A stretch of 64,000 nt of DNA. Origin: a virus. This document shows positions 37,954 to 46,914 of this stretch, in pieces. The notes beneath the pieces are model-generated. The model saw only the letters and a program-made list of their open reading frames with translations, was not told where the DNA came from and did not search any database. Every line of letters starts with the position of its first letter. Positions within the stretch are counted from its first letter, which is position 1. The position numbers and the translations under genes are program-made. The stretch lies in the IMG/VR virus record IMGVR_UViG_3300030620_000001; one strand, 5' to 3'.

Positions 37954-38145
37954 ATCCTTTCTGTGAAGTAAACGGCGGAGGTTTTTTGGCTGCTGGCCGG
38001 TGCCCGGTTCGCCGGCGTTTGTTCTCGCAAAACCGCCGGTCAGCAGCCTATTGAAACAACGTAAATCGAAAATCCCCGGCTGCGGGTACCGGTAACGGCC
38101 CGGCGGTCAGCATTTGAACCGTGGAACAGCCGGGGCATTTTCCGC

Positions 38146-38429: not shown

Positions 38430-38457
38430 TTGCAATTATCAATACACTTGGTAAATT
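38430..38457 (+). promoter_or_regulatory. Candidate promoter upstream of the pentanucleotide arrays
   Basis: TTGCAA (38430-38435)-16 nt-TAAATT (38452-38457), flanked by the inverted GCAATT/AATTGC pair. Confidence 0.35.
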
Positions 38458-38575: not shown

Positions 38576-38757
38576 GAGGCCAGGCCCGGCAAGGCCCGGT
38601 CCGGTCGGGCGGGGCTTGGCTGGGCAAGACACGGCAAGGGGACCAATGGTCCAGGAGGAGAGACAAAGCAAAGCGGCAGGGCTAGGCCGGGCAAGGCTGG
38701 GCCAGGCAAGGCCGGGCGTGGCATGACAAGGTTCGGCAAGGGAGCCAATGGCTCATC
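38576..38757 (+). repeat. Left block of two NNGGC pentanucleotide arrays (units 38576-38655 and 38678-38757)
   Basis: Each unit has 13 in-phase 5-nt registers (for example gaggc caggc ccggc aaggc ...). They end GGGGACCAATGGTCC and GGGAGCCAATGGCTCAT respectively. The linker is AGACAAAGCAAAGCGGC. Confidence 0.9.
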
Positions 38758-38778
38758 ACTTTTTCAAGGAGAGACCCA

Positions 38779-39450
38779 ATGCGAAGTTATCAGTTTGAAC
38801 TCGTCGGACGGACACCGCTGCTGGTACACGCCGACGACATCGAGGGCGCAGACCGCTTGACAGAGTGGCGGAAAGACCCGGCCAACAAGAACTTCAGCAA
38901 GCCCGGAGACGATCGTTCGCCTCCGTGGACCTGGGCGACCTACCTCTACACCGACGGCATTTTGCTGGTCATCCCCAGCGACAACTTGATGGTCGCACTG
39001 CGATCGGCCGGCGCGCAGTTCATTTTGAAAAAGCAGAAGACGTTCAAGTCGCTGACACAAACCGGGCTGTTCATCCCCGAAGACATGCCGCTGTTGGTGG
39101 GCGGCAATCAGATCAAAAACGCGGACATTGAGGCGATTACGAAACTCGACACGTTCGTCCAGCAAGCCGAGGCGGCCAAGAAGCTCGGATTCAGCTTGTT
39201 TATGAAGCGGGCCAAGGTCAGCACGTCCAAGCACATCCGCGTGCGGGCGCGCATCGAAGACTGGTCGCTCAAGGGCGTGGTGCGCGTCATCAAAGATGAA
39301 ATCACCGAGGACATCCTGAGCAACATCTTCAAGATCGCAGGCGAGGATTACGGGCTGTGCGACTGGCGGCCAGGTTCGCCAAAAAGCCCTGGACCGTTCG
39401 GGACTTTCGAGACGCGACTGAATTTGATGAAGGAATCGAAGGCGGCGTGA
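38779..39450 (+). CDS. Hypothetical protein (223 aa) flanked by the repeat arrays; possible RAMP/Cas7-like features
   Basis: AGGAG Shine-Dalgarno sequence 7 nt upstream. FELVGRTPLLVH, VIPSDNLMVALRSAG and the Gly-rich C-terminus GLCDWRPGSPKSPGPFGTFE recall RAMP beta1, IPGSSLKGALR and the G-rich loop. Judged by eye only. Confidence 0.6.
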   Translation: MRSYQFELVGRTPLLVHADDIEGADRLTEWRKDPANKNFSKPGDDRSPPWTWATYLYTDGILLVIPSDNLMVALRSAGAQFILKKQKTFKSLTQTGLFIPEDMPLLVGGNQIKNADIEAITKLDTFVQQAEAAKKLGFSLFMKRAKVSTSKHIRVRARIEDWSLKGVVRVIKDEITEDILSNIFKIAGEDYGLCDWRPGSPKSPGPFGTFETRLNLMKESKAA

Positions 39451-39457
39451 AGATTAC

Positions 39458-39645
39458 TCGGCTTGGCCCGGCCTGGCTTGGCCCGGCCAGGCGCGGCTCG
39501 GCGTGGCCGGGTAAGGCATGGGAGCCAATGGCTCATGTGTGGACAACAAAACAAAGCGGCTAGGTAGGGCTCGGCATGGCCAGGCTTGGCTCGGCCGGGC
39601 AAGGCGCGGCTGGGCAAGGTTCGGCAAGGGAGCCAATGGCTCATG
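39458..39645 (+). repeat. Right block of two NNGGC pentanucleotide arrays (units 39458-39537 and 39561-39645)
   Basis: 13 and 14 in-phase registers. Both end GGGAGCCAATGGCTCATG. The linker GACAACAAAACAAAGCGGC is similar to the left-block linker. Confidence 0.9.
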
Positions 39646-39673
39646 GATACGAATTTCACGAAAGGAGTGAAAC

Positions 39674-40174
39674 ATGGCATTTCCAATTGCACAGAAAATT
39701 TTCATCGACGAGGAACTGAAAAAGCTACGGGAGGCGACGGCGGAACTGCCGCGCGACTCGATCGTGACATATCACGAAATTGAATCGCTGGTGAAGCTCA
39801 ACCGCAATGTCGAGGGCGACAAGGCAGCCTGGTCGAAGCTCATCCGCCACTGGAAGAGGCTCATGCTGGGCGAGCGACAAATCCACGTCAATGTGGAGAG
39901 GAACGTCGGCTACCGACTCTGTGACTACGCCGAACACATGGAGTGCGCCAAGAACATCGCGGCCCTGGGGCTGAAAAAGATTCGGCAGGCGAAGTTGGTT
40001 TCCGGCATCGTCGATCCAGCGGCGCTGAACGAATTAGGCCAAAAGTTTCAAGCGAGCCTGAACGCCGTGTGCGAATCGACCGAGACCGCGTATCGCGTCG
40101 AGTTCGCCAAGCACAAGTCGGTGCTGTCGAAAACAAACGCGCTGCCGAAGTTGGGCGTCAACGGAAGCAAATGA
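39674..40174 (+). CDS. Hypothetical protein (166 aa)
   Basis: AAAGGAG Shine-Dalgarno sequence. First gene after the right repeat block. Confidence 0.55.
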   Translation: MAFPIAQKIFIDEELKKLREATAELPRDSIVTYHEIESLVKLNRNVEGDKAAWSKLIRHWKRLMLGERQIHVNVERNVGYRLCDYAEHMECAKNIAALGLKKIRQAKLVSGIVDPAALNELGQKFQASLNAVCESTETAYRVEFAKHKSVLSKTNALPKLGVNGSK

Positions 40175-45573: not shown

Positions 45574-45768
45574 ATGCTCATACTCTCGCGCAAACGGAAC
45601 GAACAGATTAGGATTGGTGACAACATCACAATCACAGTCGCTGACCTGATTGGGGGCAGGGTCAAGATCGGCATCGAGGCGCCGCGTGAGATCCCGGTTT
45701 TTCGGCAGGAGGTTTGGGATCGGATTCATGGGCAAGACAAACCAGACGCAGGAGGTAGCCAAACATGA
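45574..45768 (+). CDS. csrA: CsrA/RsmA-family RNA-binding translational regulator
   Basis: [51 protein letters not shown] aligns by eye along the full length of E. coli CsrA ([51 protein letters not shown]). Confidence 0.85.
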
Positions 45769-46092: not shown

Positions 46093-46914
46093 ATGAAGCG
46101 AGAAGCGATCAGGCACCCCAAGATATACGATCTGGCGTCTCGGCTGGGGGTTTGTCGAGAGCGCGCCATCGGCATTGTGACGGTCCTGTTAGACTGGTGC
46201 GCGGACATTACGCCGCAAGGCAATATAGGTCGTTGGCCGAACAGTTCGATTGCCGGCATCTGCGGCTGGACGGGTGACCCAGATGAATTTGTCGCGGCGC
46301 TCGTCGAGTCAAAATGGGTAGACGAGTGCGCTGTCAATCGGCTGGTGATTCACGACCTTGCGGACCACGCCGAGCAGTGGTGGAAGTTGAAGCTGCGTAA
46401 GCTGGGGCTTGAATTTGTTTCTGCAGTGCCTTCTGCAGAGCGCTCTACAGTGCCTTCTGCAGAGCGTACAGCAGAGCCTAGCGCCTCGCGTGACCTAACC
46501 GAACCTAACCTAACCAAACCAAATAAAGGTTCTTTTTCAAAATCGAAGGCTGCAACAGGTGGCTACTCGGCTGCCTTTGAAAGCTTCTGGAAATCTTTCC
46601 CGACTGGAAGGCGATCCAAGAAGCCTGATGCTTGGGTTTCGTACCAGGGCGCCATCCAGGCGTTAATTGCCGAACACGGATCCCAGGATGCCGCTGAGGC
46701 GTACTTGGAGCGTCGTGCCGCTGAATATGCAACCACCGAGCAAGGACGTGGAAAGTACGTGCGCGGCCCCTGTCCGTGGCTCAATCAGCAGGCGTGGGAA
46801 GACCCGCCCGAAGCTTGGGGAGACGTGGGTTCCCGAACGTCCGTAGATCGAGTGGCAAGCGACGAAGACTTGGCGAATTGGAATCCTTTGGATGGGGGTG
46901 TGCCTGATGGCTGA
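46093..46914 (+). CDS. Replication organiser / initiator candidate with internal ori-like repeats
   Basis: The C-terminal FESFWKSFPTGRRSKKPDAWVSY motif is common in phage and plasmid replication-associated proteins. The central linker carries DNA iterons and an A/T-rich tract. Confidence 0.5.
   Translation: MKREAIRHPKIYDLASRLGVCRERAIGIVTVLLDWCADITPQGNIGRWPNSSIAGICGWTGDPDEFVAALVESKWVDECAVNRLVIHDLADHAEQWWKLKLRKLGLEFVSAVPSAERSTVPSAERTAEPSASRDLTEPNLTKPNKGSFSKSKAATGGYSAAFESFWKSFPTGRRSKKPDAWVSYQGAIQALIAEHGSQDAAEAYLERRAAEYATTEQGRGKYVRGPCPWLNQQAWEDPPEAWGDVGSRTSVDRVASDEDLANWNPLDGGVPDG

What the first reader, a model, noticed from the sequence alone, without database searches (positions are those of the whole stretch)
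38576..39645. Four arrays of in-phase NNGGC pentanucleotides, each capped by a GAGCCAATGGCTC hairpin, bracket one 223-aa gene
**Seen in sequence.**
- There are four units: 38576-38655, 38678-38757, 39458-39537 and 39561-39645. Each has 13-14 consecutive 5-nt registers.
- Unit 3, for example, reads tcggc ttggc ccggc ctggc ttggc ccggc caggc gcggc tcggc gtggc cgggt aaggc atggg.
- By my hand count, 41 of 53 registers are exactly NNGGC. 51 of 53 keep GG at positions 3-4; the exceptions are aagac and atgac.
- Every unit ends with (A)AGGG-AGCCAATGGCTCAT, or GACCAATGGTCC in unit 1. This forms a 5-bp stem with an AAT loop.
- Units are paired through a conserved linker, ACAAAGCAAAGCGGC on the left and ACAAAACAAAGCGGC on the right.
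- One pair sits in the roughly 320-nt leader of gene 38779..39450. The other sits between that gene and the next gene at 39674. The two blocks are therefore ~190-bp direct repeats flanking one gene.
- A promoter-like TTGCAA-16-TAAATT lies at 38430.

**Why it is unusual.** This is not a CRISPR array, a REP element, an iteron set of normal length, or coding sequence. The 5-nt period cycles through all three reading frames.

**Established parallels.**
- TRAP binds 9-11 (G/U)AG triplets separated by 2-3 nt, which gives the same 5-nt period.
- CsrB/RsmZ sponge RNAs carry many GGA motifs.
- ParG, omega and ParR centromeres are arrays of very short repeats.

**Inference.** The arrays may be a multi-site platform for a ring- or filament-forming nucleic-acid-binding protein. 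Candidates are the flanked 223-aa protein and the phage CsrA-like proteins. Alternatively the direct repeats could act as a recombination cassette.
Basis: partly seen in the sequence, partly recalled or inferred. Interest (0 to 1): 0.85.

Follow-up and report, generated by a model that had tools for sequence, protein, structure and literature searches.

The report
Phage VIPR guide-RNA locus
The four GGC-pentamer arrays and the gene they bracket are a VIPR system, a phage RNA-guided DNA-silencing machine first described in two 2026 preprints, so this is a real example of a kind that is already known.

Summary
The window has four + strand arrays of 13-15 in-phase NNGG(C/T) pentamers. Each array ends in a short hairpin. 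Two arrays lie upstream and two downstream of a 223-aa gene. Nothing comparable occurs elsewhere in the 64 kb.

This is a VIPR locus (Viral Interference Programmable Repeat; bioRxiv 10.64898/2026.04.26.720920 and .720927).
- The 223-aa protein is a Vipr, a minimal Cas7-like RAMP. Its family profile hits the solved SUSP1 Vipr (E 2e-12). The five residues that read GGY in SUSP1 are invariant here. The AlphaFold model matches Csm3/Cas7.
- The arrays have the published vrRNA anatomy: 9-16 YNNGG repeats with fixed GGY and hypervariable NN, plus a conserved 3' tail.
- In related loci, arrays flank the gene on its own strand, the tail stems covary, and a syntenic accessory (vap-like) gene follows.

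By homology, one Vipr protomer binds each pentamer. The NN dinucleotides then pair with double-stranded DNA, skipping every third base, and silence the target, probably a rival phage. I found no natural target and no self-target.

The sponge, centromere and recombination readings were not. Verdict: new member of a known kind, modest interest.

The parts
38576..38655 (+). vrRNA 1. It has 13 NNGGY registers (38576-38640; one degenerate register, AAGAC) and a tail hairpin G-GACC-AAT-GGTC-C at 38640-38652. NN guide: GA CA CC AA CC CC CG GG TT TG AA AC AA.
38673..38757 (+). vrRNA 2. It has 14 registers (38673-38742; one degenerate register, ATGAC) and a tail hairpin GAGCC-AAT-GGCTC at 38742-38754 followed by AT. 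It is preceded by the A/C-rich linker ACAAAGCAAAGC. NN guide: GC AG TA CG AA TG CA AA CG GT AT AA TC AA.
38779..39450 (+). vipr gene, encoding a 223-aa minimal RAMP (Cas7-like) protein. It carries H17, R156 and D195-W196-R197, the counterparts of the GGY-reading residues of SUSP1 Vipr.
39458..39537 (+). vrRNA 3. It has 13 clean registers (39458-39522) and a tail hairpin GAGCC-AAT-GGCTC at 39522-39534. NN guide: TC TT CC CT TT CC CA GC TC GT CG AA AT.
39556..39645 (+). vrRNA 4. It has 15 registers (39556-39630) and a tail hairpin at 39630-39642. It is preceded by the linker ACAAAACAAAGC. NN guide: GC TA AG TC AT CA TT TC CG AA GC TG AA TC AA.
39674..40174 (+). vap-like accessory gene (166 aa). 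Divergent syntenic homologues lie just downstream of vipr in 14 related loci. It has no Pfam family. The N-terminal domain is predicted to be winged-helix-like, on weak evidence.

Best explanation
The locus 38576-40174 is a VIPR (Viral Interference Programmable Repeat) system carried by a tailed phage or prophage. It sits at the head of the early operon, next to the integrase and immunity region.

The four arrays are genes for four different guide RNAs (vrRNAs) of about 85-95 nt. Each has 13-15 YNNGG repeats and a 3' hairpin tail.

By homology with the solved SUSP1 system, the mechanism is as follows:
1. Vipr protomers polymerise along each vrRNA, one protomer per pentamer. They bury every GGY and present the NN dinucleotides.
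2. The filament binds double-stranded DNA whose sequence matches NN-x-NN-x..., skipping one base after each pair. For 13-15 repeats this is a 38-44 bp footprint. An R-loop triplex forms.
3. Transcription of the target is blocked. The target is most probably a competing phage or mobile element.
4. The downstream 166-aa protein is the accessory (Vap) partner, probably a DNA-binding protein.

Shown here: protein homology, conserved GGY-reading residues, array anatomy, tail structure, synteny and the absence of self-targets. Inferred from the papers: RNA expression, filament assembly, the 1-nt skip rule, silencing and the nature of the target.
For: **Protein**
- A profile of 36 family members hits PDB 36pp_D 'SUSP1 Vipr protein' at E 2.1e-12.
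- In that alignment, SUSP1 H17, R138 and D177-W178-R179 fall on H17, R156 and D195-W196-R197 of the window protein. These are the residues the structure paper names as reading G1 and G2 and as bearing on the pocket that holds Y3. All five are invariant in the 36-sequence alignment.
- The AlphaFold2 model has pLDDT 87.4. Its best PDB matches are Csm3 and type VII Cas7 RAMPs, E about 1e-5, probability 1.00.
- Its best viral matches include a phage 'Cas system-associated RAMP superfamily protein', E 2.6e-8.

**RNA**
- The arrays have 13-15 repeats, inside the published range of 9-16.
- Across 88 arrays from the window and 25 related loci, NN carries 0.01-0.07 bits, GG 1.8-2.0 bits and Y 0.8-1.1 bits. 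All 16 dinucleotides are used.
- 88 arrays lie on the gene strand and 1 on the opposite strand.
- The four window units share the scaffold but not the NN positions.

**Tail**
- The 5-bp stem closing an AAU loop covaries: AGCC/GGCU, GACC/GGUC, UGCC/GGCA, CGCC/GGCG, CUCC/GGAG.
- 94% of cells are paired and 19 cells changed on both sides. 0 of 500 shuffles reach this, and slid registers give 26-34% pairing.

**Linkage in both directions**
- 22 of 24 distinct homologue loci carry arrays beside the gene.
- Of 45 metagenome loci found by the cap sequence alone, 34 have a vipr homologue within 900 nt, always on the same strand. Four more have the vap homologue.

**Context**
- The window encodes portal, protease, tail sheath, integrase, RecE/RecT-like proteins, a replication initiator and a primase-helicase.
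- A distant homologue in Pseudomonas phage LESphi2 also has three upstream arrays.
- There is no self-target: the best NN match in the window is 61-65%, no better than shuffled guides. The paper reports the same for its own systems.
Against: - No expression data exist for this locus, so the RNA ends are unknown.
- No natural target was found. Eight pattern scans of IMG/VR and one of JGI metagenomes gave either nothing or seed hits whose extension is at chance level.
- Identity to the characterised Vipr proteins is low: 27% to the LESphi2 homologue, and only a profile-level match to SUSP1. The 1-nt skip rule was shown experimentally only for type II systems, so it is extrapolated here.
- The tail is a plain hairpin, not the pseudoknot of the SUSP1 clade.
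- The Vap assignment rests on synteny and weak fold matches (best E 0.046).
- One homologue locus (L002) has no array within 3 kb.
- The VIPR type (I-VII) could not be assigned, because the paper's supplementary tables are not held.
Confidence: 0.92

Rival explanations
1. It is a genuine VIPR scaffold used for another purpose. The guides would regulate the phage's own lysis-lysogeny programme or host genes, or act on RNA, rather than silencing competing phages. The pairing rule might also differ from the 1-nt skip.
For: - No target was found in two large viral and metagenome collections.
- The locus sits at the start of the early operon, right after an HTH_17 regulator and a c4-like RNA.
- The skip rule is untested in this clade.
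- The structure paper shows that Vipr can also pair with ssRNA.
Against: - No site in the 64-kb window matches any guide better than shuffled guides do.
- The host genome is not available, so host targeting is neither supported nor excluded.
- NN hypervariability between relatives fits an arms race better than fixed self-regulation.
- Only exact-match scans were possible, so a failure to find targets is weak evidence.
Confidence: 0.06
2. It is an RNA sponge or attenuator of the TRAP or CsrB kind. A ring protein would wrap the GGY repeats in the leader to control translation or termination of the flanked gene, or the arrays would titrate the phage CsrA-like protein.
For: - The 5-nt period resembles TRAP sites.
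- Two arrays lie in the leader of the gene.
- A CsrA-like gene exists at about 45574-45768, and another in the relative L004.
- The unit 2 hairpin is followed by a T-run and scores as terminator-like.
Against: - The adjacent protein is a RAMP with conserved GGY-reading residues, not a TRAP or CsrA fold.
- The motif is GGY, not GAG/UAG or GGA.
- Arrays also lie downstream of the gene, and after vap in relatives.
- The NN positions are hypervariable while GGY is fixed. That is pointless for a sponge but expected for a guide.
Confidence: 0.01
3. It is a DNA-level element. The arrays would be iterons or a centromere for a DNA-binding protein, or direct repeats that let the gene be excised as a cassette.
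For: Two blocks flank one gene. Arrays of short repeats are typical of ParR-, omega- or ParG-type centromeres.
Against: - Strand asymmetry is 88 to 1 across the loci.
- C and T interchange at position 5.
- The cap stem shows compensatory changes, which points to a transcribed RNA.
- The blocks share only the scaffold, with NN identity of 27-46%, so there is little homology for recombination.
- The number and placement of units vary freely among relatives.
Confidence: 0.01

Closest known systems
VIPR systems (Vipr protein + vrRNA + vap). Type II examples are Escherichia phage SUSP1 and the Pseudomonas fulva prophage. Source: bioRxiv 10.64898/2026.04.26.720920 and 10.64898/2026.04.26.720927, 2026.
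   Same: - A single small RAMP protein with the same GGY-reading residues.
- Guide RNAs made of 9-16 YNNGG repeats with a fixed GGY, a hypervariable NN and a conserved structured 3' tail.
- Guides in the intergenic regions on both sides of vipr.
- An adjacent small accessory gene.
- A phage or prophage host.
- No self-targets.
   Different: - Only about 27% identity, or a profile-level match, to the characterised proteins.
- The tail is a 5-bp hairpin with an AAU loop rather than the SUSP1 pseudoknot.
- The layout is 2 + 2 guides, against 1 + 3 in SUSP1 and 3 upstream in P. fulva.
- The accessory protein belongs to a family without Pfam or PDB relatives.
- The relatives are mostly Planctomycetota and other environmental bacteria.
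- Targets are unknown and the type is unassigned.
Class 1 CRISPR-Cas backbone proteins (Cas7 family: Csm3, Cmr4, type VII Cas7)
   Same: - The same RAMP fold (best structural matches).
- Oligomerisation along a guide RNA with periodic base flipping by a thumb.
   Different: - No CRISPR repeat-spacer array, no cas1/cas2 and no other cas genes in the window.
- The period is 5 nt with three bases sequestered, not 6 nt with one flipped.
- The guide information is non-contiguous.
TRAP-trp leader RNA and CsrA-CsrB
   Same: Many short G-containing motifs at a regular spacing, bound by multiple copies of one small protein.
   Different: - Different protein folds and different motifs ((G/U)AG and GGA).
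- Those RNAs are regulatory targets or sponges, not guides.
- They have no hypervariable information-bearing positions.

Membership tests
VIPR system | The Vipr protein is a minimal RAMP (RRM core, G-loop, thumb) homologous to the characterised Vipr proteins. | tested here: met
   - The family profile hits PDB 36pp_D, SUSP1 Vipr, at E 2.1e-12.
- The AF2 model (pLDDT 87) matches Csm3 and type VII Cas7 best, E about 1e-5.
- Viral RAMP proteins match at E about 1e-8.
VIPR system | The GGY-reading residues of SUSP1 are present (H17, thumb R138, G-loop D177-W178-R179). | tested here: met
   They align to H17, R156 and D195-W196-R197. All five are invariant in 36 family members. The residue roles are taken from paper .720927.
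VIPR system | The vrRNA has 9-16 tandem YNNGG repeats, with conserved GGY and hypervariable NN. | tested here: met
   - The window has 13, 14, 13 and 15 registers, and 47 of 53 are NNGGY.
- NN carries 0.01-0.07 bits against 1.8-2.0 bits for GG across 88 arrays. The detector selects on GGY, so only the NN result is independent.
VIPR system | An invariant, structured 3' tail caps each repeat tract. | tested here: met
   - The cap is exact in three units and a compensated variant in the fourth.
- The stem covaries across loci: 94% paired, and 0 of 500 shuffles reach the observed covariation.
- It is a simple hairpin, not the pseudoknot of the SUSP1 clade.
VIPR system | The vrRNA genes lie in the intergenic regions flanking vipr, on its strand. 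| tested here: met
   - 22 of 24 homologue loci have arrays on the gene strand.
- 34 of 45 cap-selected loci have vipr within 900 nt, all on the same strand.
VIPR system | An adjacent vipr-accessory (vap) gene is present, predicted to interact with DNA. | tested here: inconclusive
   - A conserved but fast-evolving ORF follows vipr in 14 related loci. It also follows the cap in 4 loci that lack vipr.
- It has no Pfam or PDB sequence match.
- The AF2 model (pLDDT 74) gives only weak matches, all of them to winged-helix DNA-binding domains, best E 0.046.
- Homology to the published vap1-6 could not be tested.
VIPR system | The system is mostly encoded by phages or proviruses. | tested here: met
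   The window encodes portal, head protease, tail sheath, integrase, RecE/RecT-like proteins, a replication initiator and a primase-helicase.
VIPR system | Guides have natural targets that follow the 1-nt skip rule in other mobile elements, and none in their own contig. | tested here: inconclusive
   - No self-target was found, which agrees with the paper.
- No convincing external target was found.
- Only exact-match scans were possible, whereas the paper accepts 80% or more NN match.
VIPR system | The vrRNAs are expressed as ~100-nt RNAs, co-purify with Vipr and silence matching DNA. | not testable with these tools
   This needs sRNA-seq, pull-down and reporter assays.
CRISPR-Cas | A repeat-spacer array is present together with cas1/cas2 or a multi-subunit effector operon. 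| tested here: not met
   - Tandem Repeats Finder reports only the 5/10/15/20-nt periodicity here and nothing CRISPR-like in the window.
- The neighbouring genes are an HTH regulator, vap-like and small ORFs, and RecE/RecT-like genes.
TRAP / CsrA-type RNA-binding regulators | Arrays of (G/U)AG or GGA motifs are bound by a TRAP or CsrA protein encoded with them. | tested here: not met
   - The motif is GGY.
- The flanked protein is a RAMP.
- The only CsrA-like gene lies 6 kb away.

The most novel reading that the evidence does not exclude
This environmental clade is mainly linked to Planctomycetota. It combines an AAU-triloop hairpin tail, a Vap family with no Pfam match and guides on both sides of vipr, at the head of the early operon beside a c4-like RNA. 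It could be a distinct VIPR subtype. Its guides have no detectable match in IMG/VR or JGI metagenomes. They might therefore act on the host chromosome, or in the phage's own superinfection-immunity circuit, rather than in warfare between phages. They might also use a pairing rule other than the 1-nt skip.
Probability: 0.12. Interest if true: 0.5.

Novelty: new member of a known kind. Interest (0 to 1): 0.3.

Why it matters
VIPR is a very recently described way of recognising DNA with RNA, and has been proposed as the ancestor of the CRISPR RAMP effectors. This locus adds an instance from an uncultivated phage.

- It shows that the system can be recognised from raw sequence alone.
- It provides four natural guides and a simple hairpin tail.
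- It provides a compact (223 aa) Vipr that is distant from the characterised ones. That could help in testing how general the GGY/NN code and the 1-nt skip rule are.

It does not change the current picture of these systems.

Tried and rejected
1. **Rfam.** A scan of the window gave no family for the arrays, only a c4-2 RNA upstream.
2. **Pfam.** There is nothing for the 223-aa protein. PHROGs gives only phrog_4652, of unknown function.
3. **Target prediction with the xNN rule.**
   - Four near-full-length patterns in IMG/VR gave 0 hits.
   - Four 9-NN seeds anchored at the 3' end gave 4 loci. Their extension is at chance level (4-5 of 10-12 bases), and the skipped base is not the codon wobble position.
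   - One 11-NN pattern in JGI metagenomes gave 0 hits.
   - All 158 guides searched against all 421 kb of fetched DNA gave 5 hits at 80% or more, against 0-3 for shuffled guides. None of the five involves the window.
4. **Self-targeting in the window.** None.
5. **The window's own contig.** A look-up by exact protein found it not on record.
6. **Homologues of the 166-aa protein.** The indexed search found only itself, or 4 proteins when searched with a profile.
8. **VIPR type.** It could not be assigned, because the paper's supplementary tables are not held.
9. **The - strand run of NNGGT pentamers at 46483-46522.** I rejected this as a fifth guide. It has no tail, and it lies inside the replication-initiator gene beside 24-bp iterons.

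Full report
**1.

- There are four + strand units with 53 registers in all.
- 41 registers are NNGGC, 47 are NNGGY and 51 have GG at positions 3-4. The only exceptions are AAGAC and ATGAC.
- Units 2 and 4 run one register further 5' (GCGGC), giving 13, 14, 13 and 15 registers.
- The cap GAGCCAATGGCTC is exact at 38742, 39522 and 39630. Unit 1 has the compensated variant GGACCAATGGTCC.

The arrays are far beyond chance. In sliding windows of 13 registers, 7 or more in-phase GGC occur only inside the two blocks. The arrays reach 9-11 of 13, while the whole - strand never exceeds 5.

The two blocks are not plain direct repeats. Between units, the GGY scaffold is 87-100% identical but the NN positions are only 27-46% identical.

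**2. The flanked protein is a RAMP of the Vipr family**

- The 223-aa product (38779-39450) has no Pfam family. It falls in PHROG 4652, of unknown function.
- It has at least 591 uncharacterised relatives in metagenomes.
- A profile of 36 of them (A1) has a single match in the PDB sequence set: 36pp_D, 'SUSP1 Vipr protein', E 2.1e-12.
- An AlphaFold2 model (pLDDT 87.4, pTM 0.83) matches Csm3 and type VII Cas7 backbone subunits best among solved structures (E about 1e-5, probability 1.00).
- Among viral models it matches phage proteins that include one named 'Cas system-associated RAMP superfamily protein' (E 2.6e-8).

**3. What Vipr is**

- Components: a ~20 kDa RAMP (Vipr), an accessory gene (vap), and guide RNAs (vrRNAs).
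- Each vrRNA has 9-16 YNNGG repeats, with GGY conserved and NN hypervariable, followed by an invariant structured 3' tail.
- The guides are encoded in the intergenic regions around vipr, mostly in phages and prophages.
- Cryo-EM shows one protomer per repeat in a right-handed filament. GGY is sequestered, and NN pairs with double-stranded DNA while every third target base is skipped, giving an R-loop triplex.
- The outcome is transcriptional silencing of competing phages or satellites.
- The residues named as reading GGY in SUSP1 are H17, R138 and D177-W178-R179.

In the HMM alignment these residues fall on H17, R156 and D195-W196-R197 of the window protein. All five are invariant across the 36-member alignment.

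**4. The arrays match the vrRNA definition and travel with the gene**

*From protein to RNA.*
- 22 of 24 distinct homologue loci carry in-phase NNGGY arrays next to the gene and on its strand.
- Of the two exceptions, L026 is truncated. L002 has no array within 3 kb.
- Over 88 arrays and about 1,080 pentamers, NN carries 0.01-0.07 bits, GG 1.8-2.0 bits and position 5 carries 0.8-1.1 bits (C or T). All 16 dinucleotides occur.
- 88 arrays are on the gene strand and 1 is on the opposite strand. The detector selects for GGY, so only the NN variability and the strand bias are independent results.

*From RNA to protein.*
- Scanning JGI metagenomes for GGYNNGGYNNGGGAGCCAATGGCTCA found 45 loci.
- 34 of them encode a vipr homologue within 900 nt, always on the same strand.
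- 4 more encode the accessory-gene homologue.
- Most of the remainder have the cap at a contig end. Only L061, and perhaps L046, look like orphans.

*Wider reach.* A distant homologue in Pseudomonas phage LESphi2 (27% identity) also has three arrays upstream.

**5. The cap is an RNA hairpin**

The stem starts at the third G of the final GGG and closes an AAU loop. Across 18 distinct tails the stem changes by compensation (AGCC/GGCU, GACC/GGUC, UGCC/GGCA, CGCC/GGCG, CUCC/GGAG, CCGC/GCGG).
- 94% of cells are paired and 19 cells are changed on both sides.
- 0 of 500 shuffles reach the observed covariation.
- Sliding the register gives only 26-34% pairing.
- Single-sequence folding finds the hairpin in units 1-3.

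Other clades use other tails or staggered arrays ending ...GGA|AC. The paper also reports this variety. The tail here is simpler than the SUSP1 pseudoknot.

**6. Accessory gene**

- The 166-aa ORF at 39674-40174 has weak but syntenic relatives immediately after vipr and its downstream guides in 14 loci.
- It has no Pfam or PDB sequence match.
- A shallow-alignment model (pLDDT 74.5) gives only weak fold matches, best E 0.046. Nearly all of the better ones are winged-helix DNA-binding domains such as ToxR, OmpR/PhoB-type, MarR and ArsR.
- This agrees with the paper's statement that several types have predicted DNA-binding Vap proteins. It is not proof, and homology to vap1-6 could not be tested.

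**7. Context**

The window is a tailed phage or prophage. It encodes portal, head protease, tail sheath, integrase, a methyltransferase, RecE/RecT-like proteins, a replication initiator, a primase-helicase and a CsrA-like regulator.

The VIPR locus opens the rightward early operon, just after an HTH_17 regulator and an Rfam c4-2 RNA match.

**8. Targets**

I converted each guide by the published rule (GGY replaced by one wildcard).
- There is no self-target in the 64 kb. The best NN match is 61-65%, the same as for shuffled guides. The paper finds no self-targets either.
- Exact-pattern scans found nothing convincing. Four near-full-length patterns in IMG/VR gave 0 hits.
- Four 9-NN seeds gave 4 loci whose extension was at chance level.
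- One 11-NN pattern in JGI metagenomes gave 0 hits.
- Searching all 158 guides against all fetched DNA gave 5 hits at 80% or more, against 0-3 for controls, and none involves the window.

The targets of this phage's four guides therefore remain unknown. The tools allowed exact matches only, so this is a weak negative.

**9. Verdict**

The finding is real, and the anatomy was described accurately.

The TRAP/CsrB, CsrA, centromere and recombination-cassette alternatives are not supported.

The system was described in April-June 2026, so this locus is a new member of a known kind. Still open are the guides' targets, the VIPR type, and whether the 1-nt skip rule holds in this distant clade.

Noticed in passing
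window 38071-38140 (+): There is an Rfam match to c4-2 RNA (RF02944, 44.1 bits, gathering score 41). It belongs to the clan of the P1/P7 c4 antisense immunity RNAs. It lies just upstream of, or overlaps the annotated TTG start of, the HTH_17 gene that precedes the VIPR locus.
   Followed up: no
window 46419-46522: Tandem 12/24-bp repeats (TTCTGCAGTGCC...) are followed by a run of ACCTA/ACCAA pentamers, which read as NNGGT on the - strand. All of this lies inside the replication-initiator gene 46093-46914 (phrog_9474). It is probably the phage origin with iterons, not a guide, since it has no tail hairpin.
   Followed up: partly
window about 45574-45768 (+); L004 4882-5097: A CsrA-like regulator gene (phrog_9500, E 3.6e-18) lies downstream of the RecT-like gene. 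A Pfam CsrA gene occupies a similar place in the related phage L004. A phage CsrA therefore seems to be a conserved neighbour in this phage group.
   Followed up: partly
L062 (Ga0209085_1000046) 723-2065; L064 and L035 (Ga0114963_10000034): Lake-metagenome phage contigs carry 14, 9 and 6 copies of the same cap within 1-2 kb. These are much longer tandem guide arrays than the 2 + 2 seen here.
   Followed up: no
L041 about 3267 (+); L023 about 2572 (+): The two best cross-locus guide matches both fall inside the vipr genes of other loci: the L069 guide at 19/22 and the L034 guide at 20/24. [quoted passage not shown] Overall the numbers are barely above shuffled controls.
   Followed up: partly
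L002 3058-3759 (GCA_040384425.1, JAWVGW010000237.1): This vipr homologue (57% identity) has no NNGGY array within 3 kb on either side. A terminator-like hairpin follows it, and a vap-like ORF is still present downstream.
   Followed up: partly
L018 1637-2289 (Saccharibacteria MAG); L006 2301-2445 and 3183-3297: Two variant array styles were seen. L018 has eight tandem GGT-rich units separated by an AT-rich ~22-nt spacer (GGATTTTTTAAATTTATATTTTAC) instead of a G+C hairpin. L006 has tracts of 29 and 23 registers, longer than the published 9-16.
   Followed up: no
window 38663-38677 and 39541-39560: A conserved A/C-rich linker (ACAAAGCAAAGC and ACAACAAAACAAAGC) immediately precedes the first GGC of the second guide of each pair. 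It could be a processing site or a 5' handle.
   Followed up: no
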